Below are positions 1 through 38,440 of a stretch of 64,000 nucleotides of DNA, in pieces. This DNA comes from Felis catus. Its lineage: Eukaryota. Each line of letters begins with the position of its first letter. Position 1 is the stretch's first letter. Made by a program: the position numbers and the translations under genes. Location of the stretch: assembly GCF_018350175.1 (NCBI RefSeq), contig NC_058368.1, positions 77,688,001 through 77,752,000 of the forward strand, in the 5' to 3' direction. The notes below the pieces were generated by a model. The model worked only from the letters and a program-made list of their open reading frames with translations. It searched no databases and had not been told where the DNA came from.

Positions 1-45
1 ATACTTGGTAGGAGTTTGTTGTTAAGCACTTCACTAAAAAAGGAC
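1..45 (-). pseudogene. Exon remnant (truncated by window): SFFSEVLNNKLLPS, start of an RGS-like domain
   Basis: Acceptor ctatttctctag|G; phase matches exon 325-390; resembles recalled RGS22 FSDLLNNKL and RGSL1 LTEVLLN. Confidence 0.65.
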
Positions 46-324
46 CTAGAGAAATAGTTAGTGACATTTAATTTGTTTTCGAATGTGCTTATTTAAATGT
101 GCCTCGCATAATCCGAGCAGTCCTTCTGGTAATATATTCACATCTGCATCTTCCAATTTTATTAGCAACATGAGGCACTTCCTTTTTAGTATTCATATTA
201 ACCGTCCTAAGTAATTTTCTTTTTAGTTGCGGTTTTCTCGGAATTATCTTTTCGTTTTTTCTTGCATATACTTGAGTACTTTGATATGTCTGAGATAAAA
301 ATTGATTATAAAATGCGGACTCAC

Positions 325-390
325 TTTGCTCATAAAATATCCCCCCAAAATCTTTTGCTAAGAATATTGAGGACAAATGTTCTGATTATA
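325..390 (-). pseudogene. Exon remnant: IIRTFVLNILSKRFWGDIL*AK
   Basis: Acceptor tctcttctttaccttag|, donor AAA|gtgagt; 66 nt, phase 2-2; in-frame TGA at 330-332. Confidence 0.65.
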
Positions 391-556
391 CTAAGGTAAA
401 GAAGAGATGTTCCCTAGGTGCTTTGCTTTAACTGAGCATTTTGACCTAGTCATTTTATTGTTTGTATGCAATGCTAACGTGGATTTTCATAAAGATTTGG
501 CTTATTTAAAGAGAAAAAAAATCTAGGTAGAGCAGTCTATGATTTGGTGTCCTTAC

Positions 557-647
557 CCCTTAGCAGATTTAAACTGATTGATAGATATAAGCTTGTAATT
601 TGATGTGGTCAATTCTACTGCCCACAAGTTGCCGGAGATTCTATCAG
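557..647 (-). pseudogene. Exon remnant: DRISGNLWAVELTTSNYKLISINQFKSAKG
   Basis: Donor GGG|gtaagg; acceptor cttctccgcccctccacaaag| (alternative start at 640); open frame phase-compatible with 325-390. Confidence 0.55.
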
Positions 648-731
648 CTTTGTGGAGGGGCGGAGAAGTGACGATCACGAACCCAGCAAACCAGAAGCCA
701 TCTGAACATCCTTACTTCTTAGTATACTTAC

Positions 732-811
732 ATTCTCCAAAGTGAAAGAAGAATGTTGGAATAGTCCAGAAAAAAATATGCTCATGAAAAATAAACGGGA
801 AAAAATAGAGC
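732..811 (-). pseudogene. Exon remnant: SIFSRLFFMSIFFSGLFQHSSFTLEN
   Basis: Acceptor tttattctag|, strong donor AAT|gtaagtat; 80 nt; fits the late helices of an RGS fold. A second frame is also open. Confidence 0.6.
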
Positions 812-881
812 CTAGAATAAACCTTGAATAAATTCACATGATCCTTAAACCTCTTACTTGTTTCAATGGGCTATACTAGAC

Positions 882-953
882 CTGTGTCTTGACTTAGATT
901 TATATGGGTTGTTCCATTTTCCACAACAAATTGTTCTTTTTCTTAATTGTTTT
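882..953 (-). pseudogene. Exon remnant: EQFVVENGTTHINLSQDT
   Basis: Acceptor tgttgtcctag|, donor CAG|gtctag; 70-nt intron to the next exon; matches the RGS pattern 'F(I/V)..gap..INL..t'. Confidence 0.6.
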
Positions 954-1104
954 CTAGGACAACAGTAACATTTTTATACAGGTCCTTTTCAAAATAAAAA
1001 AAAATTAAAACTCTTTTTCTTACTGCTTTAAGGAACCTGCAGCTTACCCATTAGCTTCAACAATTATCAATATTTTGCCGATCTTATTTCATCTACTATA
1101 CGCA

Positions 1105-2050
1105 TATTTTTTTTCTTTTTTACCTTGAAATAATTATAGATTCACAGGAAGATGGCACGCAAAACAGAAACACCACAATATACAAGTTCCCTGCACTGTT
1201 CACCAAGCTTCCTGCACTGGTACATCTTATGTAATTACAGCCTCCGACCAAAACAGAAACCTGACCAACTGACATGGGGATAATCCACAGAGTTTTTTCA
1301 GGTTTCATCAGTTTTACAAGCACATGTGTGTGCACCTACGTATGTGTGTGCATGCACGCACATGCATGGTCTGTGCAATTTTATCACTTGGGTAGCTTCA
1401 TGTAAGCACCACTACATTCGAGATACAACTGTTTCATACTCCCTTCTACTAGTTCATGATAGGCACACCCACACCCTCTCTCTACAGCCCCTACTTCCTA
1501 AAAACCACAGATCTGTTCTTCGTCTCGATGACTTTATTATTTCACAAATGCCACACAAGTGGGGTCATATAGTATGCAGCCCTTTGAGACTGGCTTTCCC
1601 ATTCAGTAGAAGTCCTTTGAGATTCTTCCCAGTAGTTGCTTATGTTTGTTATTTTTTATGATAACGTATGTGATTTTTTTTTTATTATATCATCTGGATA
1701 TACCACTGCTTGCTTAACCATTTACTCATCGAAGGGCATGTGGGTTGTCTCCAGTTTGGGCTACTACGAATAGAGCTTTTATACCCATTCACGTACTGTG
1801 TTCGTGCGAACACAAATTTTCATCTCTCTGGGGTAACTGCTGGGTCACATGGCTGGTGCGTGCTTAGTTTTAATAGAAACCGGCAAGCTGTTTTCTAGAA
1901 TGGCTGTGACATTCTACATTCCTCCTGGCAGTGTATGAGTGCTTCCATTTCTCTGCATCTTCACCAGCATTTGGAGTTATCACTATGTTTTCATTTTTGC
2001 CATTCTGATAGAAGTCTTGTGGTACATCACGGTGCTTTAATTTGCATTTC
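1105..2050 (-). mobile_element. Old L1 (L1M-type) 3' fragment
   Basis: Antisense L1 motifs: ttgaaataattatagattcacagga, ttgtctccagtttggg, tgtgacattctacattcctcctggcagtgtatgag, ttaatttgcatttc. Confidence 0.85.
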
Positions 2051-2233
2051 TGCCACAGCTCAGGGTGCCAAGCAGGAAAACTCATTTTTAATTTGAGTGA
2101 CCCCATCCACTTTCACCTGTGATTTATTTTTTAACTGGACTCTTGACCACCATGTTTTTAAAACTACATGTCACATTTATAGTTGGGACGGACTGCTTTT
2201 CATAGTCGAGAGGAATGCTAGTATGTTCTTTAC

Positions 2234-2346
2234 CTAAATCCATTTACTAATATTTTATGTTCTCATGTCCACCACATTTTGGTGTGTTTACACATTTCTG
2301 ATTATAAAGCGATTTACATTCAATAAGAAATACAAAAAAAAAATAC
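2234..2346 (-). pseudogene. Exon remnant: GIFFLYFLLNVNRF... (stops or frameshift later)
   Basis: Very strong acceptor tttttcttattcctttttcacctccttcag|, donor TAG|gtaaag; resembles RGS helix 4 'L.FW..VE.F'. Confidence 0.6.
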
Positions 2347-2419
2347 CTGAAGGAGGTGAAAAAGGAATAAGAAAAACACATGTCTAAAGACTCATCTCTT
2401 AGTAATTATCCCATACCCT

Positions 2420-2421
<2 letters not shown>

Positions 2422-2463
<42 letters not shown>
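2422..2463. repeat. (CA)n microsatellite
   Basis: Direct. Confidence 0.97.
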
Positions 2464-2466
<3 letters not shown>

Positions 2467-2670
2467 ACAAAATTGGAATTGTACTCTTTATATTTTGCTT
2501 CCTGCCTCTTTAAAATGTAATATACCATGACGTCGTTTCCATCATTATTATTCTATATTATTATTTTTCTTGGCAGCATAGCATTTCTTCTCATGGATGT
2601 AATATAATTTTTTGAGGGAATTTGCATTTTCTCAGTATTATAACCACTGCATTGGTGGCACCTTATTCAC

Positions 2671-2873
2671 CTGCCTTCGCAATATTGTACACTTATTTTC
2701 TGAGGTTCATTTCTCAGAAGAGATATTGTTTCCTCAAGGACTGTCTATAATTTATAACGGTTATTCCCCTCCGGCATTTTTCATGTCCCGGTTTGCTTAT
2801 TCTTCTACTGAAATAAAGAAATGGTAAGAGACTAAGTTGACTCTATGGCGAAATCTTCATCTTCCACATTGTC
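2671..2873 (-). pseudogene. Exon remnant: DNVEDEDFAIEST*...TVLEETISLLRNEPQK
   Basis: Donor CAG|gtgaat; acceptor gcttacag| (start 2873) or strong internal catttctttatttcag| (start 2807); multiple stops. Confidence 0.5.
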
Positions 2874-3702
2874 CTGTAAGCTCATTATTTACGTCCTCCC
2901 GATGAGACACATCTAGAACACCACTAAATAACTGCAGACTATGTCAGCTGTGCTGAGGCATTTGCGCACGAAGAGGTCTGGCAATGTCTGAAGGGATCAC
3001 GTGGTTCATTTTGAGCCAGTACCACGCGTGTTTGCCGTGTAAGAGCAGGAACCGCGACCTTTTTCTCACCATCACACACTTGGTGCCTAGCATCACTCGA
3101 CAAATAGTGGATGCGAAATAAATACTTGTCTGAGCGAATGAGGTACTGCGTGGGTGTCTGCAGTTCAAAAATGTGTGCTCAGCCCTGTTGTGAGCCCTTT
3201 CACGAGCAGGAATGTGTATGTGGCCAAGGGTCCACTCACCCGACAAGGAATAGACTTGTGTTCTGTGTGTGTGCGGAGCTCACGGGCGGCACCCACAATC
3301 ATATCTGCCCCCGTCTGAAGCCAGCCATCGGGTGTCAGGGCTCACAGCCATTACGTTCTCCAGCAGCCACAGGGCCCAGAACCTACCTGCCGGTCACAGC
3401 CCCTGCTCAAGGGCAGTGCGCTGTTTCCCCTCGACAGTTCTGGACTACACTTGGGAGGCATCACTAGGATCTTGCTGCATGCAGTCAGGAGCATTTAAAA
3501 GGCTTCTTATTCAACTCTTGGTCCTGAGGCATGGATGGCTGCTCCTTCAAATGCAGGGTGATTCTGACCCTTTGCTTTCTGTTTACCTCCTGCCCACCCC
3601 TCTGGCTCGAATTTGCTCCCTTTCTTTCTCATGTAGCATTTTCATTAGCCCAGCCTCTGACCTCCAGTCAGCCTCCCTGCTCTTTCTTGGTTCTACAGTC
3701 AC

Positions 3703-3892
3703 CCTGCGTCTTGGACCCACACAGCACATAACTTGGCTCCAGCTCGGCATCAAGCCACGTGTTTCAACAAGTGCCCGCTCATCGTGCGACGATGACTGGG
3801 GCTAATTTGACCGACAACAGGAACAAAATCATGCAGATATATCAAAGAGACTTGAATGTTTAGCAGCGTTCTTCTCTCTCCAATACTTTAAC
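3703..3892 (-). pseudogene. Exon remnant: LKYWREKN / LLNIQVSLIYLHDFVPVVGQISPSHRRTMSGHLL
   Basis: Acceptor atttctccttag|, donor AGG|gtgact; frameshifted; resembles recalled RGSL1 LWQDLQHFLSVL...FRHLLGDRI. Confidence 0.5.
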
Positions 3893-4159
3893 CTAAGGAG
3901 AAATTCTAGCATTAGGGGTGTTAGTCACATGGCATGGAAGGAGAGGAGATAATTTTTGATAGTCTGGTACCTTGAGTCACTTGGCTCCGCCTTAGTGTAG
4001 AGTTGGCCTTGTCCATGCAAGTGGAGACACAGAATATTTATTTAATATTTACATGGAAGAATGGGAAGGATGGTGTCCAAGATGGGTCATGGCCCGGACT
4101 GGTGGTCACATGCACATACACACGTTTGTGTTGTATTCCTACATTCTTGTATGCATTAC

Positions 4160-5760
4160 TGCTTCTTTCAATCATTCGAGAAGCATATAATGAGCACCTC
4201 CTACCTAACAGCCAGGAGCTGTTTTAGGTGACAAGGCATTTAGGACCCCATGATGGACCCACACTTGTGATTACAAGTAGCCCTGGGATTGCTTTTGAAA
4301 GTTAAATGTATGCAAGTGACATAAGAGACGTACAGGGTAGAGATTCAAGGGGCTGACGCTGTTAGCATGCCCCAAATAGGGTTCAGGTAGGCACTGGCCT
4401 TTTTCAAGGTGCTGTGATGGGAGCAGAAGAGCTCTTCCTGGCTATCCTCTGGATGCCTGCAGAGCCCAGCTGTGCTGTCTGAGCACTGCGCGAGTGCTGC
4501 AGCAGGCGGGAACACAGGACGGGTTGGGTGGAGTGTGAAACTGGAAGAAGCAATGGGGAGACGTCCTCATTGTCCAAACTAGAGAAGAAAGCCTGACCTA
4601 GATCATTGACAATGGAAGTATAAGAATGAAATGGATAAAAGGGAAGAGGTAACATTGCAGAGGGTATATTTGGAGGGTGGAAGAGAGAAAGAAATTATAG
4701 TGACTGAGGAGATTCAAGCAAGAATGCTGGTAGGATAGAATGATGCCTTTTCTTTGAAAAGTCCAGGAAGATAATGCACAAGCAGGCTGGTAGAGTAGGT
4801 AAAGAGAAATTTGCTTTTGATCCTGTTGTCAGGAGCATGGGGAGCATGGAGGTCAAGACTCCAATCTGCCCCTAGAGCTTAGGAAAGGGATCGGCGCTAG
4901 TAATGTAGGTTAGCGAACAAAACTGTGTTTAATAATAATAGCGAACGTCCACAGAGCTCTTAATATGTGTCAGATGCTATTCTCGGTCTTTTAAATATAG
5001 TAACTCATTTTATCATCAAAACAACCTATGCCATAGGTCTCATTAACGTTCCACATGTCACAGATAAGGAAACCAAGGCACACAGAGGCAGGATGCCTTG
5101 CTAGGATTCCACAACCAGTAAGTGGGCAGAGCGGACTGTCTCCCATGACCTCTCTCATCCACTATGGTGCAGGGGCCAATGTGGGCGGCAGCAGGTTTCT
5201 TCCAGGTGTTTGTCCAAGTAGAGGTGGAGGTTGACAGATGGCGATGGAACAGTGACAGGAATAAGGCACGAACTGAGCATATGACAGAAATGATGACGTG
5301 CCTTCCACCGCTGGTCCCCCTGGAAGCCCAGCCCGGTGTTGCATTCTATGTCTGAACGGAAGACAGATCCCAAGACTTCAGTCTAAGGGTCAGAGCCAAG
5401 ATCCAATGTGCTAGGTGGTGCCATTAAGGGGAGAGTGCAGCCAGAAATTAAACCTGAAAGAGCAGCTACAACCGAAAGACTGGGGGAAGCAAAAGAGTGA
5501 ATGAGAAAGACAGAGGAGGAATCATCCATCAGGAGGGGTGTGGGGAAACAAGAAGGTGCCAGTCCCAGAACCCTGGGGGACTGACAGGTTCCAGGACGAG
5601 AAGGTGGCTTCTGGCCAGCACGGGAGGGAGAAGGAAGACCGGGGAGGTGAGGACTGAGAATGGAATACAGGCATTGGAAAGACCTGATGAGCTTGAAGAC
5701 TGGGATTTTAATAGAGCCGTTGCTGCAGTGACACAGGAAAGCCAACTACAGGAGTGAGAT
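4160..5760 (-). mobile_element. Degenerate L2 fragments with an embedded MIR (~4930-5140)
   Basis: L2 tail ttcaatcattc..gagcacctcctac; purine-rich L2 body; MIR core acagataaggaaaccaaggcaca. Confidence 0.65.
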
Positions 5761-5877
5761 CACAAAACGGACGCATGAAGTTTAGGGTGCTTCCCAGTGT
5801 AATTTGGGGTGTGGAAATGATGAGGAGCCAGACGTGTGCCTGATGCAGGGCCAGAGAGATAGAGGGCAGAAAGCCAC

Positions 5878-5940
5878 CCTGTGGAAGGTGTCTTATGGAC
5901 GCCATGGGCAAATTCCCCCGCCTCCATGGCCTGAATCAGC
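5878..5940 (-). pseudogene. Exon remnant: RLIQAMEAGEFAHGVHKTPSTG
   Basis: Acceptor tttctcaattttag|; weak donor gtggct; open, phase 2-2; resembles the 'L..AL.Ad..AG.pF' lead-in recalled for RGS22/RGSL1 domains. Confidence 0.5.
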
Positions 5941-6914: not shown

Positions 6915-7031
6915 CTTATTTCTATGGTCTCTGGTCAGTTTCTTTCCTTTAACTAGCAGTCTTCTTAAATGAATACATCGTACATCATGCTTTTCAATTT
7001 TCCACCGTCTTTGTCTTTTTTTTCCCCATCC
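6915..7031 (-). pseudogene. Candidate exon remnant: GWGKKRQRRWKIEKHDVRCIHLRRLLVKGKKLTRDHRNK
   Basis: tcatttag| ... AAG|gtgaag; 117 nt open in phase 0. Confidence 0.4.
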
Positions 7032-9255: not shown

Positions 9256-10793
9256 CTAAAGGAAACTCTCTGCTTAGCCTAGTTTAATAATATATTCAGA
9301 GGTTCTCAACAGTATTTCCAGGCCTTTTCTCCCTGGTGCACAAATGGGGAAACTCTTCCCACCACATGGGTTTCCAGTGGGAAGCTTCTTTTCAGTGATG
9401 GTACAGGTCTTAAGAACCCTCTGACCTCCTTGTGTAGTGGCACATTTCTTATTGGCCTTATTTCTTATTGGCCTTATTGGTTAAAAAAGCCCAACAAATA
9501 AATACTTTCCAAGCATGCTTAAAAATGAAACAGAAGTCCTCTATGATCAGGAGTGGTTAACTCTAGGAAAAGTCTATACGGATGGCATGTGAGAAGTGTA
9601 CTATCATGTTCATATTTTTTTTTAAAAAATGGTATTTAAAATCAAAGGGTGTCATCTCATTAGAGAGATGGGACTTGATCGATATGAACTTTCTGCCACA
9701 GCTGCCATAATATGCCTCCCATCACCACTGAGCAGCTCCGTAAGTTACTGTCTTTATTTAGTTCATAGTGTAAAATGGTAACATGTATATGGTATCTGTT
9801 GATCTGAGAACATAAGGCCACGATCAGGAGGAAGGTAACACACAGAAAGATTCAGTGATTAAATCATTGGAAAGAGTGTTTCCTCACTTAATTTTCCCAT
9901 TAAAGTCGAATAAATCCTGCTTTAATGGTAAAGAAATTTACATCCGAACAGTAACGGTCTGATTTAAAGTAAAACCCCTACATGAGGCGACGACACAATA
10001 GTGTATCTATGGAAGATGAGCACTGGAGGAGACATGCAAGGATTTGCTCTAAATCCCTCATTTTTGAGGAATCTAAAATCTGCAATGGTGAGGTGGCTCA
10101 CCCATGGTCACCCCATTAACTGGGCAGAGGCCAGGCAGAGCTGGTGTTCCCACTGGACCTATGAGAAGCACTGCATGTGAAATCAAGAAAACTGTGGAAG
10201 AACACTGAGATGTTCAGACATGCAGAACTAATATTGGTATCGATCTAATTGATGACATAATTTGTTAAGCAAATTTGCATCTACAAACAATGTGCTGAAG
10301 GCCAAGGATTTGTGGTAGGCAGGAGAGAAGCAGGAATGGATTCTATTCCCTAACTTGAATCCTTACAAGCATACAACCTTATTAGGATGATGCTTAATAT
10401 CCCATTTGCTGAACTGGTAGCTCTATCTTTCCACGCTGAGATAAAACAAAAGCATATATGTGTTTCTAAACATGTTACGAACTATTTATCGCTCAAACTA
10501 AATGGCCAGTTGAAGATAATAAGAACAGATGCAAACAGAAATCTAAGATAGTCTTTGAAACAAATGTTCTAACATTTGTTTTGGTTAAAAAAGCCCAACA
10601 AATAAATACTTTCCAAGCATGCTTCCATTGATTGATTGATTTATCTTTGGCAACCTTGTTCAAATTTCTCTCTCCACTTGTGCAAGTGCAGACTCTGGGA
10701 GTCTTCAGAGATATTTCCAAATGAAAACAGAGACATTGTCTCCACCTTGCCCACTCATTACGTTGTTCAGGACACGTGGTGTAACTGACCCAC

Positions 10794-13467: not shown

Positions 13468-14318
13468 CTGACAGTGAAAGACACAGTAAAGCAAGAAAGA
13501 TTGACTTATTTCCATAAATAATATATATAAGATAGAAAGCATTTTTTTATCACAGACCACAGTAATATTGTAGTGCTGTATTTTTATGATGCATTGCACT
13601 TAGTTGTACAGAGTTCAAGAAACAGCCTCATTCCAAGGCTGCAATATATGAAAGCCACTTGGGTCTGCAAGCAGTTTTTTTTTTCTCCTAAAGCAAAAGT
13701 AAGTAAAAGTCCATTGTGTGTAAGAAAATCCTTTGTAGGCTTAACTTTTTTTTCCCCCCGTTTTTATGACATCTTTTCTGTGCATGTGAACTGAAGTCTT
13801 GTATTTTGGAACCAAACCAAATGTTTAATTAAAAAGTGAAATGAATATTCCTTTATACCTCATTTCTTTCATCTCACCCCCAAAGAGGCAAGAGTGGGAG
13901 GTGACAAGATGATAAATTAAAAAGCCAGAAGCCCGGACATCTCCAGGGATTCACAACCTCCACATTTATCCCCAAGCGGCACAGCTGTGCAGCTCTCAAA
14001 GCAGGCTCTGCCCCCAGAGGGACCGTAGATGGGGGCTCAGTCGCAGGGGTGAGCGACTCTTTACATAACAACCAATTATTTTTCTAATTTACCACATCTC
14101 TCAAAAATTCTCAGGCTTAGCACCTACCTCTAATATTATGAACTAACAACTGACATCGAGGGTATTATTCTGTGCTAAGAGTGGGTGTGCTCTGTCCCAA
14201 TATGCTTACTTGTTTCAAGGCCTCTGTTCTATAAAAGATGTTTCCGGGCATCAAATTCAATTTCTGCAAAAGGTACACAGAATTCTGTGGCTCAGTAAAG
14301 CATTGATCTGTTTTGTAC

Positions 14319-14432
14319 CTGGCAAATCGCACGACAGATTTCGACATGGTGCCACCTTTTGCGAGGTAGCATATATTGTAAGGTTAACATGTTGTAGGTA
14401 TTATAGTTGTATTTTGTATCATGTATACCAAC
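14319..14432 (-). pseudogene. Exon remnant, 114 nt (ancestral frame ambiguous)
   Basis: Acceptor ttatcattatccgcag|, donor CAG|gtacaa; open in phase 0, two stops in the phase 1 frame that joins the next exon. Confidence 0.55.
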
Positions 14433-15061
14433 CTGCGGATAATGATAATAAATGTTTTTTTTCAAATGTGATTTTTGCTTTTCTCTCAGCTCATAGTTCT
14501 CAAGGCAAAGTTATTCTACAATTAGTTTTCTTCGAAAGATTCTTTACAGAGGCATCAAATTTAGCCTTTAAATGCAAGAACACCTTTGACTCATGGCAAT
14601 AGAATCTAATCACAGCTATTAGAAGGAAATACATGACATTAAGGTTATTTCTAACATAATCCTATTCTTTAAAAAGGATTCCGTTGGCACATGTGGACAC
14701 ATCTTTTAGTATTTAATGTGGGACTTAACAACCACCTTATAGAATAATGCGTCTAAAATCAAGAGTATACTGCCTTGATTTTAACTGGTCACCTAAAAGA
14801 GCAGAATCCAGAGGATATTTTTGTTAAAAGGGACCATAACAAAGCCTGAGGTCTAAATAAAGACCAAAGCTACGGATTAGGAAGATTTCAGATTTATCAT
14901 TAACATCGCTTCAAGTAGAAATAGTTTCTATTCTTTTTTAACATGTTAGATGTAGTAAAAATAACTTTGAGAAATTATACTTTCATTGAATGGAAAAAAG
15001 ATATTAATGATAACTGTCCTAGTATTAATGAAAACTATCATTAAGAAGAAGTAAGTCAAAC

Positions 15062-15254
15062 CGGGTGAAATCATGCTACGATGTGCACAAATGTTCACAC
15101 GCAATGTCATTTGTGAACTAAATTCCTGTAAAGAATGCTAGACGAATACAGCTGAGCAACACGAGATTTTAAACAATGCTTCAGAAGCATTCCTTTATCT
15201 CTGTATTGAATTTCCTCAACCGTGTGTTCTACATAAAAACACTCTGAATGCCAC
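15062..15254 (-). pseudogene. Exon remnant: CFYVEHTVEEIQYRDKGMLLKHCLKSRVAQLY
   Basis: Acceptor ttttattctttccacctcacgggcag|; donor uncertain; RGS helix 4-5-like pattern (VEE). Confidence 0.5.
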
Positions 15255-15767
15255 CTGCCCGTGAGGTGGAAAGAATAAAAAAAATGTGTCCTTTTCTTGC
15301 ATGCATATTTAGTCTCCAACTAGGTCAGAGACATTTTTAAGAAATTGTATCTGCTTTTATCTTTCTTTTTATTTATCTATTTCAGCAAGTACACGCTGCA
15401 AGTTTTCAAAACATGTTTTTTGATGATAGTTTTAAGACCCAATGAAGCACTACATTGAGCTGAGTGGAGAAGCATAGACGTGTCCTTCTTCCCACTTTTG
15501 CCCTGGCCTCGGATCCCAGGCCCTGCCAATCATCTTGAAGATGGAGTTTAAAAAGGCATTGGGTTAGTCTGTTCATATCTTTAGGCAGTCACTTATTTAA
15601 CATTTAGCTGTTTTCCTTGGCCTTGTAAACATGGCCTTTGACCCTTATCATATTAGTGTTTCTGTTGAGGAAAAGGGAGATGTTTCTCTGTTCACTTATA
15701 AATCGTGCATTTTGCCATTGTGTGCGCTCTGAGTTAAAGATCAGTGTTGTGTGTCTCTGCTCTCTAC

Positions 15768-15878
15768 CATAACTGCAAATCCCTGAGAATCTCTGAAAGG
15801 CTCTCAGAGAATCCAAAGAACTACAAATACAAAGTTCGAAGTCTGAACAAATACAGAGTTCATATTGTCGTCAGTTCC
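15768..15878 (-). pseudogene. Exon remnant: ...SSLDSLRAFQRFSGICSYG
   Basis: Strong acceptor ttcttttgtttgtcttttggttctag|, donor ATG|gtagag; resembles recalled RGS22 EFERFKKFIKGTLG. Confidence 0.55.
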
Positions 15879-25208: not shown

Positions 25209-26436
25209 TGTACAAAAATGTTTACTGAAGAATTACTTCTAAAATGAAGGAAGCTGGAAAAACCTAAATGCCCCTTCATGGTCAATAGTCAAGTGAATTA
25301 TTGTACATACGTACCATAGAATGCAATGTGGACATGAAGAATTGTAAGCTGATCTTGTAGGAATTAATATAAAGGATGCCCATGAAATTCTTTTATTCAA
25401 AATATTTTATGGAGAGCATATGACTTTCGACCTGAGGGTTGTGAGTTCAAGCCTCACATTGGACACAGAGTCTACTTAAAATTTAAAAATACGTATACAG
25501 TTATATTAGTTACCAGGCATATGTATATGTACACACATATGTATATGCCCAAAAGGATGGTATTAAATGATTAATAACAGTTATTCTGAATAATTTGAAG
25601 GGCGGCATTGACTTTACATTGTCTAGGTTTTCATATCAATCGAGTGTTTGTAGAGTACACACATCGCTTTTCCAATTTGAAATGTCGATGAAAACAGTTC
25701 ATGACTGAGTAGGAGCAATGAGTCACCATAGCTAGGCAATGAAGCATGGCGGATGGGTACATGATGACATTTTGACATTAAGCCACTCTCACCCAAACCC
25801 TGCTGGTGAAGCTATCCATCCTACATGGAGATACTGAGACAAACCCATGGATCTCTGGGCACAATATTTGGAACTGGTTCCATCCAGAAAAGTAGAAGGA
25901 GAGATTCTCATCAGAGAGCCAGGAGGCTCTAAACTGTTGGAGAGGAGAACAGGAGCATGAAGCGTGGGAGGTGGTCATGGTGATGGGCTGCAGCTCTGAA
26001 CTCTACATTCAAGTGCAGCTCTTTCACTGAATACACTGGAAAGATACCAGTCCCTCTGGTTTGCATACAGCATCTTGTTCCCATGCACACGTGTGAATTA
26101 CCATAAAGTGATCCAACGCCTGATCTTCTTGACAATGGGTTTCCTGGAGATTCTCTGGATAGCAAAAAGTTACTCTTCAAATTAGTGTTTTAAAGATGCC
26201 CTTGAAGAGAGGCAAGTAATAAACTAATGGAAATAAGTATAATTATAAGTTAATTTTATTTTAGAAACTGCTTAAAGAAATTCTCAGGAAACTTATTGTC
26301 TCTTTCAGTTCAATTAAATGGACACGATTAAATCAGAAAGTGACGGACCTCGAGGGAGAAATTATTTCCTCACAGGAACTCTTGATTGAGGGTTGTTCAA
26401 ACAATGCTGTGTAGGCGCTCACAGAGAAACACACAC

Positions 26437-26659: not shown

Positions 26660-27582
26660 CTGAGTTTGTGAAAGAGATACATATTTCAAAAATGAAAGCT
26701 TTGAGGATTAATACAGTTACTTTGGGGAGTGGCACCCTCGAGTGACAAAGGAAGTTCTGTCCTTGCAGGCACAGGTCTCTTTTATGACTGAGTTGACATT
26801 TTATGGACACAGATTATCTGTCTTAAGCTCTGAGCTTTGGGATATGAACCAGCCCTCAAAGAGAGCGATGGTAAAATGGGCTATTCTGACCTAGCCAGTA
26901 TGTGATATAGAATAAAGAGCTGTAACATACAAGTTGAAAATGTCATATTTCCCCCACCAAACTACCAGAGCACATCTTTCACTGTGTTACGTGTTTTTCT
27001 CATGCATAAAATGTGAGAGAAAAATAAGATAAATTCACTTAAATTTTGGCTGCAATAGTATATTTCTCTGACTTTGAACATACTGACAATATTAAATTAA
27101 TTGTGAGTTCATTGTAGGCAAATTGATGATCATTCTAAGGGTAAGGACTTTAAGGTATGTCTTTGATATCTGGATAGAACCAAACCATCTCAAACATTTC
27201 ATCTTTCCTATACAAATGGCTAAAGTATAGATAACTTTTGGGCATTTGATAAACTCTGTTTATAACCACATTTCACTTTAGGCAGGTGGAGTTGGGATTT
27301 TGGCATTCAGTCTTATCAGGATGTGATCCTAGATTTATACTGGACTCCCTAAATGGACTCACCTGGTAAAAATTATCTGGCAGCAGAGACAACCACAGAG
27401 ACCCTCTGCTGAGTCAATTAATACGAGTGTTCCTGTAATGAGCCAAGAGGTATTTAGAAACTCAGGGATCAATTAATTTGTAAGTCAAGAAACAATTTAG
27501 GAGAGTAACCAGACTGTTTAAATGGACATTAATTCCTTTAAAAAGACAAATCATATTGATGTGACCTTAAAAAAGTATTTTC

Positions 27583-27949: not shown

Positions 27950-28965
27950 TTGAATGTTCAATTAGCTACTGGGAGTTGAGACCTCAAATGATCCCATAGT
28001 TTAATGACCAGGACCAAGATGAAGCCCTTCTCCATCAACCTGACTTTATTATTTGTTCCAGCAAATTCTTTCTCAGGAAGATAAGGCTATTAGCCAGTAT
28101 AACACTTCACTGTTGGCTTCAGAAACTTTCCCCAAACCAACAAAGTGCCCAAACAGCCCCCCTTTCTAATCAAACAACTGTTCATTTGTAAATACTTGCT
28201 TCAAGACATTCCACCTCTCTGGGTCTACCTGTCCTAAATTACAGTATCAGGACCTTGATTCAATCTCAATCAGATCCTTGCATTGAAAGACTCATCTTAA
28301 GTCCTTTGGGTCCAGACCTCAAAAGCCCATAAATATCTATCCATGGGTCCCTCTTCTGAAGCCACCGAAAGACTTGGCCATGTGTCCACCTACAGTGAAG
28401 ATAATGAGCTGAACTTTGCTTGATTAACAGGTTAGTCGGGTGGTTCACCAAGATGGCCCTAATGTTCTCCTCTATGTGCTGAAACCACAGACACAGGCTT
28501 CTTCCTGGTTCCAGGTCCCTAATCTCCCTTTGCTTGGAACACTTTTTTTGTATAGAAAACTTGTAAATATTGCAAATTTTGTCCTTTTGAGACGTAAATC
28601 TTTGTAGAGTCTCTTGCCACTTTTGCAACCCAGGAACATCTTCCCAAGGAGCTGGGAGCCATCCCTTTGAATTGTGTCATCAGAGGAAACAGTGTCCCAC
28701 TTCTCAGTCTCTGGGGCCAGCCTTCTGCAGGTGCAAGAGCTCCAAATGCAGAGCTAACGGTACTTCCTGTCATGAAAAACTGGCTTTTCTGGGGTGGGGG
28801 GTAAAAATAATCAGCAAACTCAGATAGTCTACAATCCCATTCCATGCTCTGTTTTGGCAGAGTTGAGCTCAGGCAGGGTTCTGGCTTCTTCCCTCTATTG
28901 CAGCGGCCTTGAACAAAGTCAGGCTGGCTCTTTAAACTTCAGCAGGTGCAATTCTTTCTTCGGCG
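27950..28965 (+). mobile_element. ERV LTR-derived sequence (distal part MER34-like)
   Basis: tagaaaacttgtaa, caacccaggaacatcttcccaaggagctgggagccatccctttgaa, ctctattgcag..cttgaacaaagtc. Confidence 0.6.
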
Positions 28966-29026
28966 TAGTCTTTCAAGTATTTGGTACTCAACATTAATTT
29001 TCTCACATGGAAATATACATTTTTTA

Positions 29027-30826: not shown

Positions 30827-31258
30827 CTTTAAACAAATAACAGTAGTGTATACATCTCCTGCGCTACAAAACAGTTTCATTACTGTAACACATCTATCAG
30901 TGGGGACTCGTCCTAATTCTGCCCTCCTCCACACTAACCTTTTGATAGTTACATCTGTCCTGGCATCTACTCTATAGGTATTCACTTTGCCAACTGGGGT
31001 TTTTTGCTCTTCGGTGATCAGAATTTTTAAATAATTAATTTCTAAACTGAATTCAGGTGTCAGATAAGGTTTTAAGTGAGATCTGCTCTAGGAAGAAAAA
31101 TGGAAAGAGGAGTAGCTAATGCTCACTAATTAAATAATATCAAGGAGGATATTATGTTCCCCCGGTGTCTGCCAGTTGTAAAATGATTATTTTAGACACA
31201 TCAAATGTGACAGTTGTGTATTTGAAACTTGCCCATAATTTTGTTGAAGTCAGAGTAG

Positions 31259-31478
31259 TTTTTTTTAATTTTAATGTTTAATTATTTTTGAGAGAGAGAG
31301 AGAGGGACAGAGCGTGAGCGGGGAGGGGCTGAGAGAGAGGGAGACACAGAATCCGAAGCAGGCTCCAGGCTCCGAGCTGTCAGCACAGAGCCTGATACGA
31401 GGCTTGAACTCACAAGACATGAGATCATGACCTGAGCCGAAGTCAGATGCTTAACCAACTGAGCCACCCAGGTGCCCC
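31259..31478 (-). mobile_element. Can-SINE
   Basis: TSD cagagtag. Confidence 0.95.
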
Positions 31479-31775
31479 AGAGTAGATTTTTTTTTAAGCA
31501 AACCAATATTGTGGAAGAATTACGTCATTTTTGGAAAGTGACGCACCATTATTTCCACTCTGTTTCTGCCCCCCAACCCTGCCCTGCCTTTTGTCTCTCT
31601 AAGAGTTACTTTCCCGAGAGACTGTCGTAACACCAAATGTGAGAATGAAGTTCAGAAACATGCGCCAATTCCAGCATTTCTGGCTTGGAAGACGGCAGAA
31701 AAAATATATTTCTGTATTTCAAAGGATCCTATTTTCATAAAGAACCGAATACATTAACGAGTGGAATTACTTTAC

Positions 31776-31948
31776 TCATGACGTGGAGACAAAACTTCAA
31801 AGCCAAAGTGAGTGAGCGAAAGCTAACTTCGTTTAGGAGTCTTGCCGAAAGACTGTTAACAGTGGTATTGTCCCACTTCACGGAGCTCAAGTTGAAGCTT
31901 GGCAGCTGACTTTGGAGTCTGTCTTTTAATAGCACTACATTTGCCTCT
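31776..31948 (-). pseudogene. Exon remnant: EANVVLLKDRLQSQLPSFNLSSVKWDNTTVNSLSARLLNEVSFRSLTLALKFCLHVM
   Basis: cttaatctctag| ... |gtaaag; fully open; phase 2 start matches 32401-32509. Confidence 0.5.
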
Positions 31949-32400
31949 CTAGAGATTAAGCTTCCTCATTGGCCAAGCCATTCACGTACTAAGTCATTTA
32001 TTAGCTCGATCATTCCCGCATATCAGCTTTGCAGATATTCTGACTCAAACCTGTTCTTCAGTAAAATTTCAGGTTGCTACACGTCATCGTCTTTAGAGTT
32101 TCTATAAAACCGTTAAGCCTGTTTATACTAAAGGCCAAATGTACTTTTTATTCTGGCCCAAAATGAAGTATTTTAGAAGCTGAATGGCAGTTATATGAGG
32201 TAAGGTGGAGTCTGAAGCCCTAAATATTCACTAAATATATGATTGCTATTAACTCCCTAATTTTAAACAAAATGTACTGATGAAGGCATTCTCATATCCT
32301 TTGGCTAATTACACAACTACTCATTACACCATGTTCTTTAAAAATATTCCAAAGTAAAACAAAAGGGGCAAAGGCTTTGATCATTTGGTGCTGAAGTAAC

Positions 32401-32509
32401 CTTTTTGGTGTTCTTGAATGTGACCGAGACCTGAACCCGTCGGCTCTTTTGACCACCCGAGGAGGTTCTGAGGGAGCGTCTGCATCTTCAAGGCTGAAGA
32501 TCTTCTCCT
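32401..32509 (-). pseudogene. Exon remnant: EKIFSLEDADAPSEPPRVVKRADGFRSRSHSRTPK
   Basis: aattcatag| ... AAG|gttact; fully open, GC/CpG-richer than its flanks. Confidence 0.5.
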
Positions 32510-33021
32510 CTATGAATTATATTTAAGCTGATCTGACAGACATTTAACCACTGGATTGACTGCTAAGAGTCTGATGAGCACAATTAGATAGCAATTGCAT
32601 TATAATGCCTGGAGATTAAGAGAAAACCACCAAAGGACAGTGTTCATTTCACCCGTAGTTGAATGGATTTCCTATCATGACACTTCTCTCCAACAGTGGA
32701 AATTGCCCATATAAAATTCCTAATAAATGAAATACTATCTTTGTCACAATGGAACATCTGGAATGATTTAATAGCACGAAAGCTTCTCTTGCTTTTCTTT
32801 CAAACACTCGCGGAAAAAGAAAACCTAGCGATATTTTCTATTCTATTAAAAATAGGTTATCATATGAAAGCAATCATACCGAACTAACAATTGTTGTTGT
32901 TAGTTCTCTCAAAAGCATGCATGTAAACAGATGCACTGAATTTGACTTCTTAGTTGATTTTGTCGTTCACGTAAAAACTGTCTATTAAGGGCCTATTAAT
33001 AAAGGTCCTGCTTAGGAGTAC

Positions 33022-33265
33022 TGTCTTCAGTGGAAGAGTTGTGGCTGAAGCAATATGAGTGAAAACCCAAGGGGAAAAATGTGTGAAGTCCTACAGGGGC
33101 TCAACGGAAGGACCACCTGGGTCTCATTAACAGCATAAACACTTCTTGTCAAAGGTGACATTGGATAGTGCCATGGAGATTCAGGAGTGCCTACAGGAGT
33201 CGTCTGTTCCATGACACTGTAATTTTTAAGCGATCCTACCTGACCAATAATAGGAATACCAGGAT
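33022..33265 (-). pseudogene. Candidate exon remnant: PGIPIIGQVGSLKNYSVMEQTTPVGTPESPWHYP...
   Basis: Acceptor tctttctttccacaaaag|; long open frame; donor uncertain. Confidence 0.35.
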
Positions 33266-33344
33266 CTTTTGTGGAAAGAAAGACTGTGACTTAGGCTATA
33301 TAGAAAGTGTCTTATTACCCATATTTCTGCCATCTTCCATGAAA

Positions 33345-33763
33345 CTGATGAATTTTATGCATCAGCTTGGCTAAGCTATAGTGCCCAGAGAGTGGGCTCA
33401 ACACCAGTCTAGATGTTGCTGTGAAGGTATGTTTAATAGGACACTAACACTGGAACCCACAGACATTAGATAAAAGCACATGAGCCAACATAAGATGGGT
33501 GGGCCTCATTCAATGAACTGAAGGTCTTAAGACATAAAGACTGGGGTACCCCAAAGAAGAGGGAATTCTACCAGTAGACTGTCTGTGGACTCAAGATGGC
33601 AACTCTCCCCTGGGTTCCAGCCTGCCAGTCTGTCCTGCAAATTTTGGACTTGCCAGGTCAGATGATTCTATGAGCCAATTCCGCGTGTGTGTGTGTGTGC
33701 GCGCGCGCACACACACACACACACACCCTATATGTTCTTTCTCTAGAGAACCTGGCTAATACC
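33345..33763 (+). mobile_element. ERVL solo LTR (MLT2-like)
   Basis: ttttatgcatcagcttggctaagcta...tctagatgttgctgtgaaggta...tctctagagaacctggctaatac. Confidence 0.8.
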
Positions 33764-34524
33764 ATCAGGGACCCCAATGAGGATGTTATTTTTCAACAGA
33801 AGAAGTTTTGTAATACTCTTCTATGTCTACAGCAGAGCAGAGAACTCAAATATAGGACACACGGCATTCAAGTAAGGAGAAAGGGACGGATATTTTAAGA
33901 GAGAGAGAGAGACTGCAGCAAGTTTCATTTTAAGTAAAGTGGGTAGTCACATTTTTGCAGCACATATGAAAAATAAACAAGCCTTTTTAATTAGAATAAT
34001 TTTAAAAACCTATACATTAAGTGAACTTGCAGCAAGAGTGTAGGAAGCAGCCTGGAATAGTTGTCTTGGGGAAGCAGAGAAGCATTTGAACCTATTCAAC
34101 GTGGCAGATGGCTAGTGGTCTACATGGGGGAGAAACTGGGGAGGGAGGAAAGACTAATACGAGGGAGACCAACCCCATAGCAGTTTCCTGGCCATGGTGC
34201 CAAAGTTCAGTACGGAGACCAATTTAAAAATAGAAATCAGCATCTCCTGCCCCGCCCCCCGCCCCAGTGCACATTCTGTCATCCTCCTGACCGCATCTTC
34301 ATGCACCTCCCCGCCCCCCCAGGACCATGTGGCCCAGCAGTACTTGGCAGTTTTGGGGTTTACATGTTATCGGGGGAATTATCAGATTAGTGTCCCAAAC
34401 GGCACGTGGGCTCCCTATAGAAATATGCCCCAAGGATTGAGTGTATTTGCATTCACTAAGCATCATGGTTGCATTCAGGAAGCAACCTCAGTACCTGCCA
34501 GTGAATGAATGCGTGAAGGAACAT

Positions 34525-34785
34525 GTGTGCATGTATATGTGTATATATGTATATGTATATATATATGTATATATACACATGTATATATGTATATGTATAT
34601 ATTCATTATATGTATATTCATACATATATATACATACATATACATATATACATATATATATATATACACACACAGCTTCTGGAAAAATATATGCATACAT
34701 ATATATAAAATGTATGCATATACATATAATGAATATATTCATTTTATATATATATACACACACACATATAATATGTATATATGTC
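34525..34785. repeat. Compound (TA)/(TG)/(CA) low-complexity repeat
   Basis: Direct. Confidence 0.9.
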
Positions 34786-34844
34786 CATAATCAGCAAAAT
34801 TAATGCTTTGGCTAACAGATAACATACTTATAAATCTCATTCCA

Positions 34845-35065
34845 GGGGCAGCTGGGTGGCTCAGTTGGTTGGGCATCCGACTTTGGTCATGACCCAGGTC
34901 ATGATCTCACGGTCAGTGGGTTCGAACCCTGGGTCAGGCTCTATGCTAACAGCTCAGAGCCTGGAGCCTGCTTCAGATTCTGTGTCTCCCTCTCTCTCTG
35001 CTCCTGCCCCCCTCTGTCTTTCTCTCTGTCAAAAATAAAATAAACATTAAAAAAAATTGAAAAAA
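34845..35065 (+). mobile_element. Can-SINE
   Basis: TSD aaatctcattcca. Confidence 0.95.
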
Positions 35066-35179
35066 ATCTCATTCCACGTCCCAGATTTCTTTGATTCTAA
35101 GACAACTTTACCCATTGCAGCTTCTCAATTCTAAAATCTAGTTGTGTAATAAAGTCAATAGATTGTCATGTTTTGTCTA

Positions 35180-35284
35180 TTTTTTTTTTCTTGGTCTCTC
35201 TCTCTTTTTTTTTTTTTTTTTAAAGTAGGCTCAACACAGGGCTTCAACTGAGACACCCAGGCACCCTGGGTTTTTTTTTTTCTT

Positions 35285-35331
<47 letters not shown>

Positions 35332-35397
35332 AAGTAGGCTCAACACAGGGCTTCAACTGAGACACCCAGGCACCCTGGGGTTTTTTTTTCTTGGTCT
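35180..35397 (-). mobile_element. Tandem pair of internally deleted SINE remnants
   Basis: aagtaggctcaacacagggcttcaactgagacacccaggcaccctggg occurs twice. Confidence 0.8.
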
Positions 35398-35956
35398 TCC
35401 AATCGAGAGCATGTTTGATTTGATGCCATGTAGAGAACGTTTCGTTTTCATCTAACTGGATGTCCACCTATGACATAGAGAAATCCGATTTATTACAGCA
35501 ACTAAAGCAGCAATAAATAAAGGGTACTTCTTATATATTTTTTTAATCTCTAGACACAAATATGGGCTTCCCAAGAAGGAAACCACAACACAAAATAGAT
35601 TTCAAATTAGGGTGGGAATGAATTTTTAAACCATGCAATTTTTACTCAAAGAGCTTTGAACCAATCACTGTCATTATATTAGATGAGAATGAGATTATAT
35701 AAAAAGAGATTAGAGCTTCAACTTGGAACCTGATGTTTAAACCCTTACACCAGTGACATCACAACACTGTAGCACTAATAAGAAAAGAAATTATATACAT
35801 ATAAATAAGTATGTTACATAAATGTTACAGCTAAAACGTCTTTGGAGTTTAGAAAAATATTTTTTAAAAAAATACATGTGTATATAATATATATTTAAAA
35901 ATATGTATATATAAAATCTTGTAAGAGTCTTAAAAATTTTAAGGACTAGGCACTAC

Positions 35957-35992
<36 letters not shown>

Positions 35993-36444
35993 CCTCTGTT
36001 CACAACTTTGAAGGTTGAATGTTTTACCCATAGACCCCTAGTGAGTAAATGGAAAAGCCAATAATCAATGCAAATTTCTTAACTCCAAAATCTCATTTTT
36101 CCCCTCAAATCAGTACAACACAATGTAGAAGGCCAAAAAGAATGAGAAATTCATCATTCATTACAGCTCACTGACAGTAAAAAAAGGTAATTGGAATAAA
36201 GAAATATGTGTCCAATATGCCTATATATTACAGTCTCCTAGAAAAAAAACGATTTATTCATTTTTCCTGCATATTCTATATTCAATATCGAATTGAACTA
36301 GTTTTGTATCCATTTGTGACTCTCTTGCTTTATAAACACTTTCAGGAAAATTACTTTGGGGAATGGTCATATTTTCAATCACAAGAACACATTAGACATC
36401 TGAACTTTAAATTATTCTTCAGTATTTTGAAATCCCCGTAAGAC

Positions 36445-36683
36445 CTCGGCAAGGAGAACTGGGTTAACAGGGGCAGAGTGTCCAGTCTGGACTGAGAGGA
36501 ATCTTCTTCTTTCTCCTTCTTTTTAACTTCTCCCTCATCGAGGTTAAATGAAGAACGAGCAAGGCTCTGACAGGCCTCCTTACTTCCCACCTTTGGATTC
36601 CCTGTGCCGGCCAGTAAATACTTGTGAAATGAACGCCCATGCGAATAAATATTTCTAATCTACTGGCAGAGGTGGTTAACATC
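36445..36683 (-). pseudogene. Exon remnant: DVNHLCQ*IRNIYSHGRSFHKYLLAGTGNPKVGSKEACQSLARSSFNLDEGEVKKKEKEEDSS
   Basis: ttatgtgcag| after a 74-nt intron; one stop in ~79 codons; donor uncertain. Confidence 0.45.
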
Positions 36684-36757
36684 CTGCACATAATACAGCC
36701 CGCTTAGGCGGAGTCAGGAAGAGGTGATAGGAGCAGAAGGGCATGAGGCATCCTGAC

Positions 36758-37040
36758 CTTTGCACAGACTTCTAAACAGAAGGGTACCACGGGATCCTGA
36801 GAACAGCCTCTCCTACGAGCAGCAGAAGGCGGTCATTGTTTTTGGAATCAGAACTCCACGGACAGGTGAGCAGAGAAAGTCTGCAAAGGATCTGGACTTC
36901 ACAGCCATCGTGATCCACTTCTAGTCTGAAGCTTCTCAGATGGATCACTGTCGCAGAGTATTTGTCGTCAGGGTATTTGCAATGATCGCAGGACTTGGCC
37001 GGTGGAATGTGATGGGATGTCCATTTCCGCTTCTGTGTGC
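36758..37040 (-). pseudogene. Exon remnant: DDKYSATVIHL / KWITMAVKSRSFADFLCSPV
   Basis: Donor AAG|gtcagg; frameshifted; resembles recalled RGS22 N-terminal NYNIMCL..EGIKWIKKERLPAFLESDC; 5' boundary approximate. Confidence 0.5.
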
Positions 37041-37121
37041 ACTCCTTCCCAGGACCCGCCAGCCTCCTAAATTCTAGTTAACGCGCACAACACTTGAAAA
37101 AGATCTTCATTTTCAGCTCAC

Positions 37122-37214
37122 CTTCCAAACGTGTAGCTATGATATCATGTCAGGAAGTCAGGTTTCACGCAATCGTGAAGTATCACGAAGGCTTCACCAG
37201 TCGTGTCTGTGTTC
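37122..37214 (-). pseudogene. Exon remnant: NTDTTGEAFVILHDCVKPDFLT*
   Basis: Strong sites ccgtcctctccgacag| and AAG|gtgagc; resembles recalled RGS22 FNADYGVFEVAND. Confidence 0.55.
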
Positions 37215-37299
37215 CTGTCGGAGAGGACGGCAGTGCCTTTCTCTACCGCCTCACTCAGTGATTGCTAATTAGTAAAAATTAATTAGATACTTTACTGGC

Positions 37300-38440
37300 A
37301 CTTGTGCTAGAGTGCAGCCGGCTCGGCGCTCAGTCCCTCCAGTCCCCCAGCATTCTACGGCTCCAGACATCTGCAGTGACAGCCGCCTCTTGTTCTGTGA
37401 GCTCCGTCCACCAGGGCTGAGCACGAGTGGCCATCGTCACCTCTGAGACAAGGACCCTCCCTTCCTCCGCAGTGAGTGCGGTTCATTTCCTGCATCTCGT
37501 TTCGCTCACATGTTCGACGATGACGTTGTGAACACTTCAGGGACTGAACGGCCCGGGATTCAGTCGCTTCTGCACGCCTTGTACCCAGCAGAGAGACAAC
37601 GAGTTCGGGAGACTTTTCGGGAACCGTTCGCCGAAGGTTCCAATAGAAATATAGACGCACTTTGACACAGCTTCTGGAAACAATTCTCTGGGATGTTGGC
37701 CTAAATTTAACTGAAGTCAAAAACCTTTTATGTGCTCTCAGGTCTTTTCTCGACCCCCGAACACTGGGCTCCGCCTCCCGGGTGGGCTGGCAGGAGCTTT
37801 GCCTATGCTGATGACCTCACCCTGCCTCCCCATCACCTCTTACTGTTCTAACATACTTACATCCTTGAGGAGACATGCCCGGATCCCTGGACCATGACAG
37901 ATTTCCCTGCCTTATGCTCTCATAGGACGTAAACCAGTTACAATTTTCTGTAAATCTGTGAAATCGCTTGTCTATCTCACGTGTATCTCCTCCTCTACAC
38001 CCCTTGCTGCCGAATGCTGCGGGTCCCATGTTTTTACTCCCCACTTTATCTCTAGAAGGGAGCTCGGTGTCACTGTTTACATTCATTGTTTATAAGGCTC
38101 AGATCCCTCTTGGCCCAAATTGTGCACCTGTGGGCTGACCCTCTACTTCGTGGATCGTATGGGAGCCGAGGTCCATGGACAAATGGGCCTTTCCTCCAGG
38201 TCTTGATCTGAATGTGCCAGTTAGCTAGAGGCCTTTTGTAACTGGAAACACGAGTTTGTCAGTACGAGACCAGTTGCCCTCCATCGATCCCCATGCTTCC
38301 GAGAGCAGAGGGCAGGCTCCAGGGAGAGAAAGCCCCCTGTAACCTGGGGCGGCAGGGGGCGGGGGACGGGGCAGGGGAACTGCACAAAGGTGGAAATGTG
38401 GGTGGGGGCACCTAGCTCAGAAAGTGCCCACGGGGAACCT
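37300..38440 (-). promoter_or_regulatory. CpG-enriched region with GC boxes; probable (ancestral) promoter and first exon
   Basis: Visibly elevated CpG; GGGGCGG motifs at ~38345-38380; minus-strand donor AGG|gtgagg after 37821; lies at the 5' end of the exon chain. Confidence 0.5.
37585..37700 (-). pseudogene. 5'-most recognisable exon remnant: PRELFPEAVSKCVYISIGTFGERFPKSLPNSLSLCW
   Basis: aaatttag| ... TGG|gtacaa (alternative donor gtgagc, exon end 37510); resembles recalled RGS22 EEEFEDSLATDDFLVDYFNEFLSLP. Confidence 0.45.

What the first reader, a model, noticed from the sequence alone, without database searches (positions are those of the whole stretch)
1..37700. Hidden fossil gene: a decayed third member of the RGS22/RGSL1 multi-RGS-domain family
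Seen: ~25 minus-strand AG/GT-bounded segments, mostly invisible in the ORF track, with many phase-compatible joins and scattered stops and frameshifts. Inferred by eye against recalled sequences: the order mirrors RGS22/RGSL1. An N-terminal block (FGERFPKSLP; NTDTTGEAFVILHD; KWI....R...FLCS at 37.7-36.8 kb) is followed by a long linker and then repeated RGS-like units (RAFQRF..G / VEE / ..KW at 15.9-13.4 kb; LIQAMEA / LHDF at 5.9-2.8 kb; LYFLLNVNRF / EQFVVENGTTHINLSQDT / SGLF at 2.3-0.7 kb; FSEVLNNKL at the window edge). Identity is far too low for the RGS22 or RGSL1 ortholog, and retained introns exclude a retrocopy. An anciently duplicated, now dead paralog is the best reading.
Basis: partly seen in the sequence, partly recalled or inferred. 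Interest (0 to 1): 0.85.

Follow-up and report, generated by a model that had tools for sequence, protein, structure and literature searches.

The report
Probable fossil RGS22-like cilia gene
This stretch of cat-family DNA likely holds the decayed exons of an unnamed relative of the sperm-tail and cilia genes RGS22 and RGSL1, but no database search confirmed the kinship, so it remains a probable, untested gene loss.

Summary
The window is felid and, by earlier scan notes, lies about 0.57 Mb before ABHD13. That is the 13q33-like region, so this is not the RGS22 or RGSL1 locus. Bovine RGS22 is in the structure library, yet 0 of 9 window queries hit it. No homology search confirmed the family: Pfam, three word searches, one full HMMER scan and two Atlas look-ups gave nothing relevant. 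Second, five strong splice pairs at 37.2-25.8 kb join in one frame with 2 stops in 169 codons, against 13 and 12 in the other frames (P 0.04-0.12, one candidate skipped). My own agreement rests largely on recalled sequences, which is a lead and not a test. Verdict: probably (0.68) a dead third family member. I found no earlier scan note or paper on it.

The parts
37001..37750 (.). CpG-richest stretch of the window, at the predicted 5' end; possible promoter remnant (inferred)
   Evidence: 38 CpG in 750 nt, observed/expected 0.80, GC 0.51, highest CpG count of all 750-nt windows
37122..37214 (-). candidate N-terminal exon, 93 nt, one in-frame stop
   Evidence: acceptor 7.5, donor 6.9 (top 0.3% and 0.2%); first of the one-frame chain
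36758..36812 (-). candidate exon, 55 nt, open
   Evidence: acceptor 5.8, donor 3.7; in the one-frame chain
30939..31087 (-). candidate exon, 149 nt, open in one frame only (0, 8 and 3 stops)
   Evidence: acceptor 6.5, donor 4.7; frames
27363..27432 (-). candidate exon, 70 nt, one stop in the chained frame
   Evidence: acceptor 6.8, donor 8.7; phases
25793..25933 (-). candidate exon, 141 nt, open
   Evidence: acceptor 5.6, donor 3.1; weak match to the RGS core block, rank 12 in the window, hhalign P 0.005
31840..32076 (-). possible linker exon with two stops; weak
   Evidence: no strong splice site; full HMMER scan gave only an ankyrin artefact; rests on recall
14210..15878 (-). first RGS-like unit: candidate exons starting at 15878, 15254, 14432 and 14263, with stops and a likely frameshift near 15220
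   Evidence: acceptors 5.4, 4.7, 3.2 and 5.1; RGS-profile blocks rank only 20, 120 and 51 here; joined unit not scored by the profile
   Evidence: acceptor 2.1 (top 5.9%), 45 open codons in phase 0, no donor found; resemblance to the family is recalled, untested
5900..5940 (-). candidate start of the second RGS-like unit
   Evidence: acceptor 4.3 one base before the motif
2273..2346 (-). RGS core block, one stop
   Evidence: strongest minus-strand acceptor, 9.9; first member of the best chain
882..984 (-). RGS helix-loop block, one stop
   Evidence: best hit of that profile block on either strand, 19.8 vs next 19.4; rank 4 of 4266 chunks by hmmsearch; hhalign P 0.002
732..811 (-). candidate exon closing the second unit; phase-compatible with 984-882
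   Evidence: donor 3.9 (top 1.3%), weak acceptor
   Evidence: ORF; no database hit; resemblance recalled, untested
1..45 (-). start of a third RGS-like unit, cut by the window edge
   Evidence: acceptor 1.6; 6 of 10 identities to the first residues of bacterial RGS domain L022

Best explanation
The minus strand of 1-37.3 kb likely carries the decayed exons of an intron-containing gene related to RGS22 and RGSL1, which would have encoded a long protein with several RGS-fold domains and is now likely dead. Shown: AG/GT-bounded blocks with in-frame stops, a CpG-rich 5' end and, from earlier scan notes, a position in the 13q33-like region. Inferred: it arose by DNA-level duplication, since introns are kept. 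It probably sits inside the large first intron of NALF1/FAM155A on the same strand (human coordinates recalled, scaled from the distance to ABHD13). Its product probably worked like RGS22, a structural scaffold of the radial spokes of motile cilia and sperm tails rather than a G-protein GAP. It then lost its frame through stops and frameshifts while SINEs accumulated between the blocks. The 3' part (rest of unit 3 and a predicted unit 4) would lie beyond position 1.
For: (a) A profile built from 20 bacterial RGS domains finds canonical RGS proteins and bovine RGS22 in the PDB. Its helix-loop block has its best hit of both strands at 883 minus. With splice scores, the core-to-loop chain 2301 to 883 is the best on either strand: 2 of 250 shuffled profiles reach it at weights 0.25 and 0.5, and 5 of 8 half-profiles pick the same place. 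(b) By splice score alone there are 13 strong pairs on the minus strand and 2 on the plus. Five of the six in 25.8-37.3 kb join with 2 stops in 169 codons, against 13 and 12 in the other frames; 3.6% of random segment sets do as well. (c) The window-edge block matches the start of an RGS domain, 6 of 10 residues. (d) A CpG-rich stretch lies at the predicted 5' end. This is recall, a lead only. (f) Function by analogy: RGS22 sits in radial spokes (PMC11779644, passages) and has four RGS domains lacking G-alpha-binding residues (PMC13443885, passages).
Against: No external hit. Pfam gave 0 RGS matches in 148, 30 and 12 segments. Word searches gave 1 spurious felid ORF of 3 candidates, 0 of 23 and 0 of 1883. 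The full HMMER scan gave one ankyrin artefact, the Atlas nothing twice, and the PDB 0 of 9 window queries reaching RGS22. The chain result is 25 of 250 family-wise, 24 of 250 without splice weight and 31 of 250 at full weight. In 3 of 8 half-profiles 18 or more of 40 nulls matched it. Four-block chains do not beat block shuffles (114 of 300), and free spliced alignment gives only noise. The five-exon chain skips one strong candidate (33826-33727) and is matched by 10 of 81 phase permutations. The minus-strand excess of splice pairs continues upstream of the gene. I also saw by-eye look-alikes out of order (16.8 and 13.7 kb), so such matches arise by chance here.
Confidence: 0.68

Rival explanations
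1. Ordinary intronic DNA. The motifs are chance look-alikes, and the splice-like sites reflect the strand bias of a long transcribed intron.
For: All database searches negative (and nine PDB queries). Same density of exon-like pairs at 38.6-64 kb. The best profile hit is barely above the next (19.8 vs 19.4). No internal test is significant after correction.
Against: The strongest acceptor of the strand lies 11 nt before the core motif. The N-terminal chain keeps one frame. The searches were weak for such a target: in simulation an 8-segment query found 84 of 100 relatives at 65% identity, 35 at 55% and 1 at 45% (word rule guessed, segment set differing by one from the one sent).
Confidence: 0.22
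2. Only part is real. The RGS-like units at 0-16 kb are a relic, but the 37-26 kb chain and the linker belong to another decayed gene or to nothing.
For: The linker blocks have no support. The profile supports only the 2.3-0.9 kb unit.
Against: Same strand, a CpG-rich 5' end, and a span that would fit one gene; by recall the N-terminal chain resembles the same family (untested).
Confidence: 0.08
3. It is the RGS22 or RGSL1 locus itself, or a retrocopy of either.
For: Only the resemblance.
Against: The position is among POGLUT2, ABHD13, MYO16 and ARHGEF7 (earlier notes, unchecked). RGSL1 is at 1q25.3 in human (reference title in PMC10148553) and RGS22 at 8q22 (recalled). A true ortholog would hit bovine RGS22 strongly and did not. 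The blocks are spread over 37 kb.
Confidence: 0.02

Closest known systems
RGS22 (bovine chain 9fqr_Ha; radial-spoke protein)
   Same: Predicted layout: N-terminal block, long linker, then several RGS-fold units in series. RGS22 has four, at mouse residues 408-530, 664-779, 846-975 and 1019-1141 (PMC13443885, passages).
   Different: Other chromosome region; no detectable single-exon similarity to bovine RGS22 (0 of 9 PDB queries); frame broken; only two units and the start of a third lie in the window.
RGSL1 (1q25.3; found in bovine and mouse sperm proteomes, PMC11779644 supplement rows)
   Same: Recalled multi-RGS layout; several by-eye resemblances at the N-terminal block and first unit (recalled, untested).
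Unitary or duplicated pseudogenes of sperm and cilia genes, e.g. the dead WDR95 noted earlier on the same piece (e1-7855046, unchecked)
   Same: Multi-exon relic with stops and eroded splice sites.
   Different: WDR95 has a named intact ortholog; none was found here, and decay looks far more advanced.

Membership tests
RGS domain (PF00615) | match above the Pfam cut-off of 23.9 bits | tested here: not met
   0 RGS matches in 148 + 30 + 12 segments; the segments are single broken exons, for which the test is weak
RGS domain (PF00615) | core motif followed by the helix-loop motif, in order | tested here: inconclusive
   best chain in the window at 2301 to 883; 2 of 250 nominal, 25 of 250 family-wise; joined unit 6 bits, P about 0.0007 for one comparison
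RGS22/RGSL1 family | significant collinear similarity to RGS22 or RGSL1 over several exons | not testable with these tools
   neither protein could be stored for a spliced alignment; single-segment PDB queries did not reach RGS22
RGS22/RGSL1 family | three or more RGS units in series behind an N-terminal block | tested here: inconclusive
   unit 2 weakly supported; unit 1 not scored; start of unit 3 matches 6 of 10 residues; the rest lies outside the window
RGS22/RGSL1 family | grouping with RGS22 and RGSL1 in a tree; shared intron positions | not testable with these tools
   no family sequences or gene structures available
RGS22 or RGSL1 ortholog | syntenic position and high identity | tested here: not met
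   13q33-like neighbours; no hit to bovine RGS22, present in the library
Unprocessed pseudogene | introns kept and frame disrupted | tested here: inconclusive
   stops and splice pairs are in the sequence, but the exon status of the blocks is not proven
Unitary pseudogene | intact ortholog at the same place in another lineage and no working copy in this genome | not testable with these tools
   no vertebrate genomes held; no whole genome for this window

The most novel reading that the evidence does not exclude
Vertebrates had a third RGS22-type radial-spoke gene, nested in the NALF1 intron. It is still intact and unstudied in some non-placental lineages and was lost early in placental mammals, so axonemes of birds, reptiles, amphibians or fish would carry a spoke subunit that mammals replaced or dropped.
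Probability: 0.4. Interest if true: 0.6.

Novelty: new member of a known kind. Interest (0 to 1): 0.4.

Why it matters
RGS22 was only recently shown to be a radial-spoke part needed for coordinated ciliary beating, and RGSL1 is barely studied. A third family member, lost in cats and perhaps more widely, would date the family's duplications and point to an intact gene elsewhere whose place in the axoneme could be tested. It would also be a rare same-strand nested gene in a neuronal intron (inferred). As it stands it is a dead gene of a known family with no shown function, and the kinship is unconfirmed.

Tried and rejected
Homology: Pfam on 148 of the 365 stop-free, low-repeat minus-strand segments of 28 aa or more listed, plus 30 chosen and 12 read-through pieces, gave no RGS match. 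Word searches: the one hit, P0002, is a spurious frame from felid DNA that reads TGA as W. The full HMMER scan with 31780-32112 gave a 1227-aa ankyrin protein by summed repeats, rejected. Atlas: two blanks. PDB: nine window queries, only chance hits. Metagenome scan: 3 of 343 stretches passed, short pattern-selected matches that I take as chance and did not examine further. A short RGS-motif pattern gave 0 viral and 14 chance bacterial matches. A viral scan with a bacterial RGS domain confirmed 0 of 18. Rfam: 0 matches. tblastn of the 20 bacterial domains: best E 0.29, none of the 25 printed rows on the 2.3-0.7 kb unit. Free spliced profile alignment: noise. Enlarging the RGS set added almost nothing. 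Expression: 20 of 24 listed runs hold half or more of the words of 35.5-38.6 kb, 2 on record as RNA and 12 guessed RNA. No reads were laid, so this is no evidence and transcription stays open. Literature: ten searches listed no paper on a third paralog or on a gene in the FAM155A intron. I saw listings and abstract starts, plus passages of PMC13443885, PMC11779644, PMC10148553 and PMC10276158 and supplement rows of the first two. The main supplementary PDF of PMC13443885, which should hold its alignments and phylogeny, was too large to read and may bear on paralogs.
Full report
Setting. The window is AT-rich mammalian DNA with many cat-type SINEs (ORF list; self-repeats; the SINE label is recalled). 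No whole genome is held. Earlier scan notes, which I could not check, place ABHD13 573 kb, a MYO16 exon 1.25 Mb and ARHGEF7 2.85 Mb beyond the window's end, and a POGLUT2-linked relic 4.0 Mb before its start. In human, FAM155A, LIG4, ABHD13, TNFSF13B and MYO16 lie together at 13q33.3 (PMC10276158, passages). Scaling recalled human coordinates puts the window in the first intron of NALF1/FAM155A, with the claimed gene on the same strand; this is inference. RGSL1 is at 1q25.3 (reference title seen in PMC10148553) and RGS22 at 8q22 (recalled), so the locus is neither.

Observation. All 16 motif strings are present on the minus strand where stated. Of 13 named blocks, 5 have an acceptor of 4 or more within 150 nt upstream (random positions 19%), and the two at 37635 and 36920 have none worth the name. 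The site at 2346 is the strongest of 4304 minus-strand acceptors, and 37214-37122 is among the best pairs. None of 19 candidate blocks overlaps a repeat found by self-comparison. Exon-like pairs are enriched on the minus strand, but no more inside the claimed gene than upstream of it, so the enrichment cannot be counted as support.

External homology: all negative. Pfam found no RGS domain in 148, 30 and 12 pieces. Three word searches returned one spurious felid frame among 3 candidates, then 0 of 23 and 0 of 1883. The single full HMMER scan, spent on 31780-32112, gave only an ankyrin artefact. The Atlas gave two blanks. Nine PDB queries from the window missed bovine RGS22, which is in that library. 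A simulation suggests the 8-segment word search would find most relatives at 65% identity (84 of 100), about a third at 55% and almost none at 45% (the word rule is my guess and the set differed by one segment). So an annotated, intact placental ortholog is unlikely, while a distant intact ortholog or the two paralogs could easily be missed.

An independent RGS profile. Since no RGS22 or RGSL1 sequence could be stored, I collected RGS domains from bacterial genomes: 3 of 400 in a gammaproteobacterial sample, 13 of 41 and 4 of 36 in two orders. I aligned 20 of the 21 extracted, dropping one with a long insert. The profile finds canonical RGS proteins at about E 1e-20 and one domain of RGS22 at E 7e-6, so it is a fair but blunt probe. 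On the window, the 936-883 block ranks 4 of 4266 chunks and is the best hit on either strand for the helix-loop block, 19.8 against 19.4. With splice scores added, the core-to-loop chain 2301 to 883 is the best on either strand. Shuffled profiles reach it 2 of 250 times at weights 0.25 and 0.5, 7 at 0.75, 24 at 0 and 31 at 1.0; over all 50 order-weight combinations the figure is 25 of 250. Five of 8 half-profiles put the best chain there; four of them have 2 or fewer of 40 nulls above it, while three of the 8 have 18 or more. Four-block chains do not beat block shuffles (114 of 300), the first unit is not scored at all, and free spliced alignment gives noise. The window-edge block matches the first ten residues of the best bacterial domain at 6 of 10 (picked after the fact).

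Frame test at the 5' end. Chosen by splice score alone, there are 13 strong pairs on the minus strand and 2 on the plus. Six lie in 25.8-37.3 kb. Five of them (37214, 36812, 31087, 27432, 25933) join to 508 nt with 2 stops in 169 codons, against 13 and 12 in the other frames. Random segment sets of the same lengths do this 3.6% of the time, and phase permutations 10 of 81. The sixth (33826-33727) had to be skipped; with it, the run of five from 37214 has 6 stops in 155 codons. The CpG-richest stretch of the window lies at the head of this chain.

Recall. I also saw look-alikes out of order at 16.8 and 13.7 kb. By rough estimate each such match alone is at chance level in a window of this size. 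This raises my odds, but it is a lead and not a test.

How it would have worked. If the kinship holds, the ancestral product would be a protein of roughly 1200 residues with several RGS-fold units. RGS22 binds in the heads of radial spokes 1 and 2 and bridges to EFCAB5 in sperm (PMC11779644, passages). Its four domains lack G-alpha-binding residues, and its loss disturbs coordinated beating (PMC13443885, passages). RGSL1 appears in bovine and mouse sperm proteomes; among the 15 'regulator of G' rows of that table no third RGS22-like entry appears. A structural axonemal role is therefore the likeliest ancestral function (inferred, 0.6 given kinship). Today the locus likely makes no protein. Whether it is transcribed is open.

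Verdict. Observation partly confirmed, interpretation partly supported. Dead third family member 0.68, chance look-alike 0.22, partial relic 0.08, ortholog or retrocopy 0.02. No earlier scan note mentions RGS22 or RGSL1, none lies near or resembles the window, and ten literature searches listed no description of it. New member of a known kind if true; interest 0.4.

Noticed in passing
window 9477-9520 and 10581-10624: A perfect 44-nt direct repeat with 1.06 kb of unique DNA between the copies; six-frame Pfam of the interval found nothing above cut-off. The candidate exon at 9803 lies inside it.
   Followed up: partly
window 35195-35397: Tandem duplication of about 95 nt at 90% identity.
   Followed up: no
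window 28250-29010: Three overlapping long minus-strand frames (93-139 aa) next to SINEs; protein-like but no Pfam or Atlas hit. Possibly an old repeat or a linker exon.
   Followed up: partly
window 38601-64000, minus strand: Strong acceptor-donor pairs are as dense here as in the claimed gene (e.g. 47729-47634, 45638-45575, 50271-50140). Either intron strand bias or further decayed exons. This part was not scanned against Pfam.
   Followed up: partly
L018-L039 (unnamed gammaproteobacterial genomes): Eukaryote-type RGS domains are common in some small-genome Gammaproteobacteria: 13 of 41 genomes in one order and 4 of 36 in another, against 0 of 401 Alphaproteobacteria and 0 of 301 in another phylum searched. 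They may act on host G proteins (guess).
   Followed up: no
   Followed up: no
P0002: The protein collection holds a spurious 191-aa entry made by reading felid DNA of this locus with TGA as tryptophan.
   Followed up: yes
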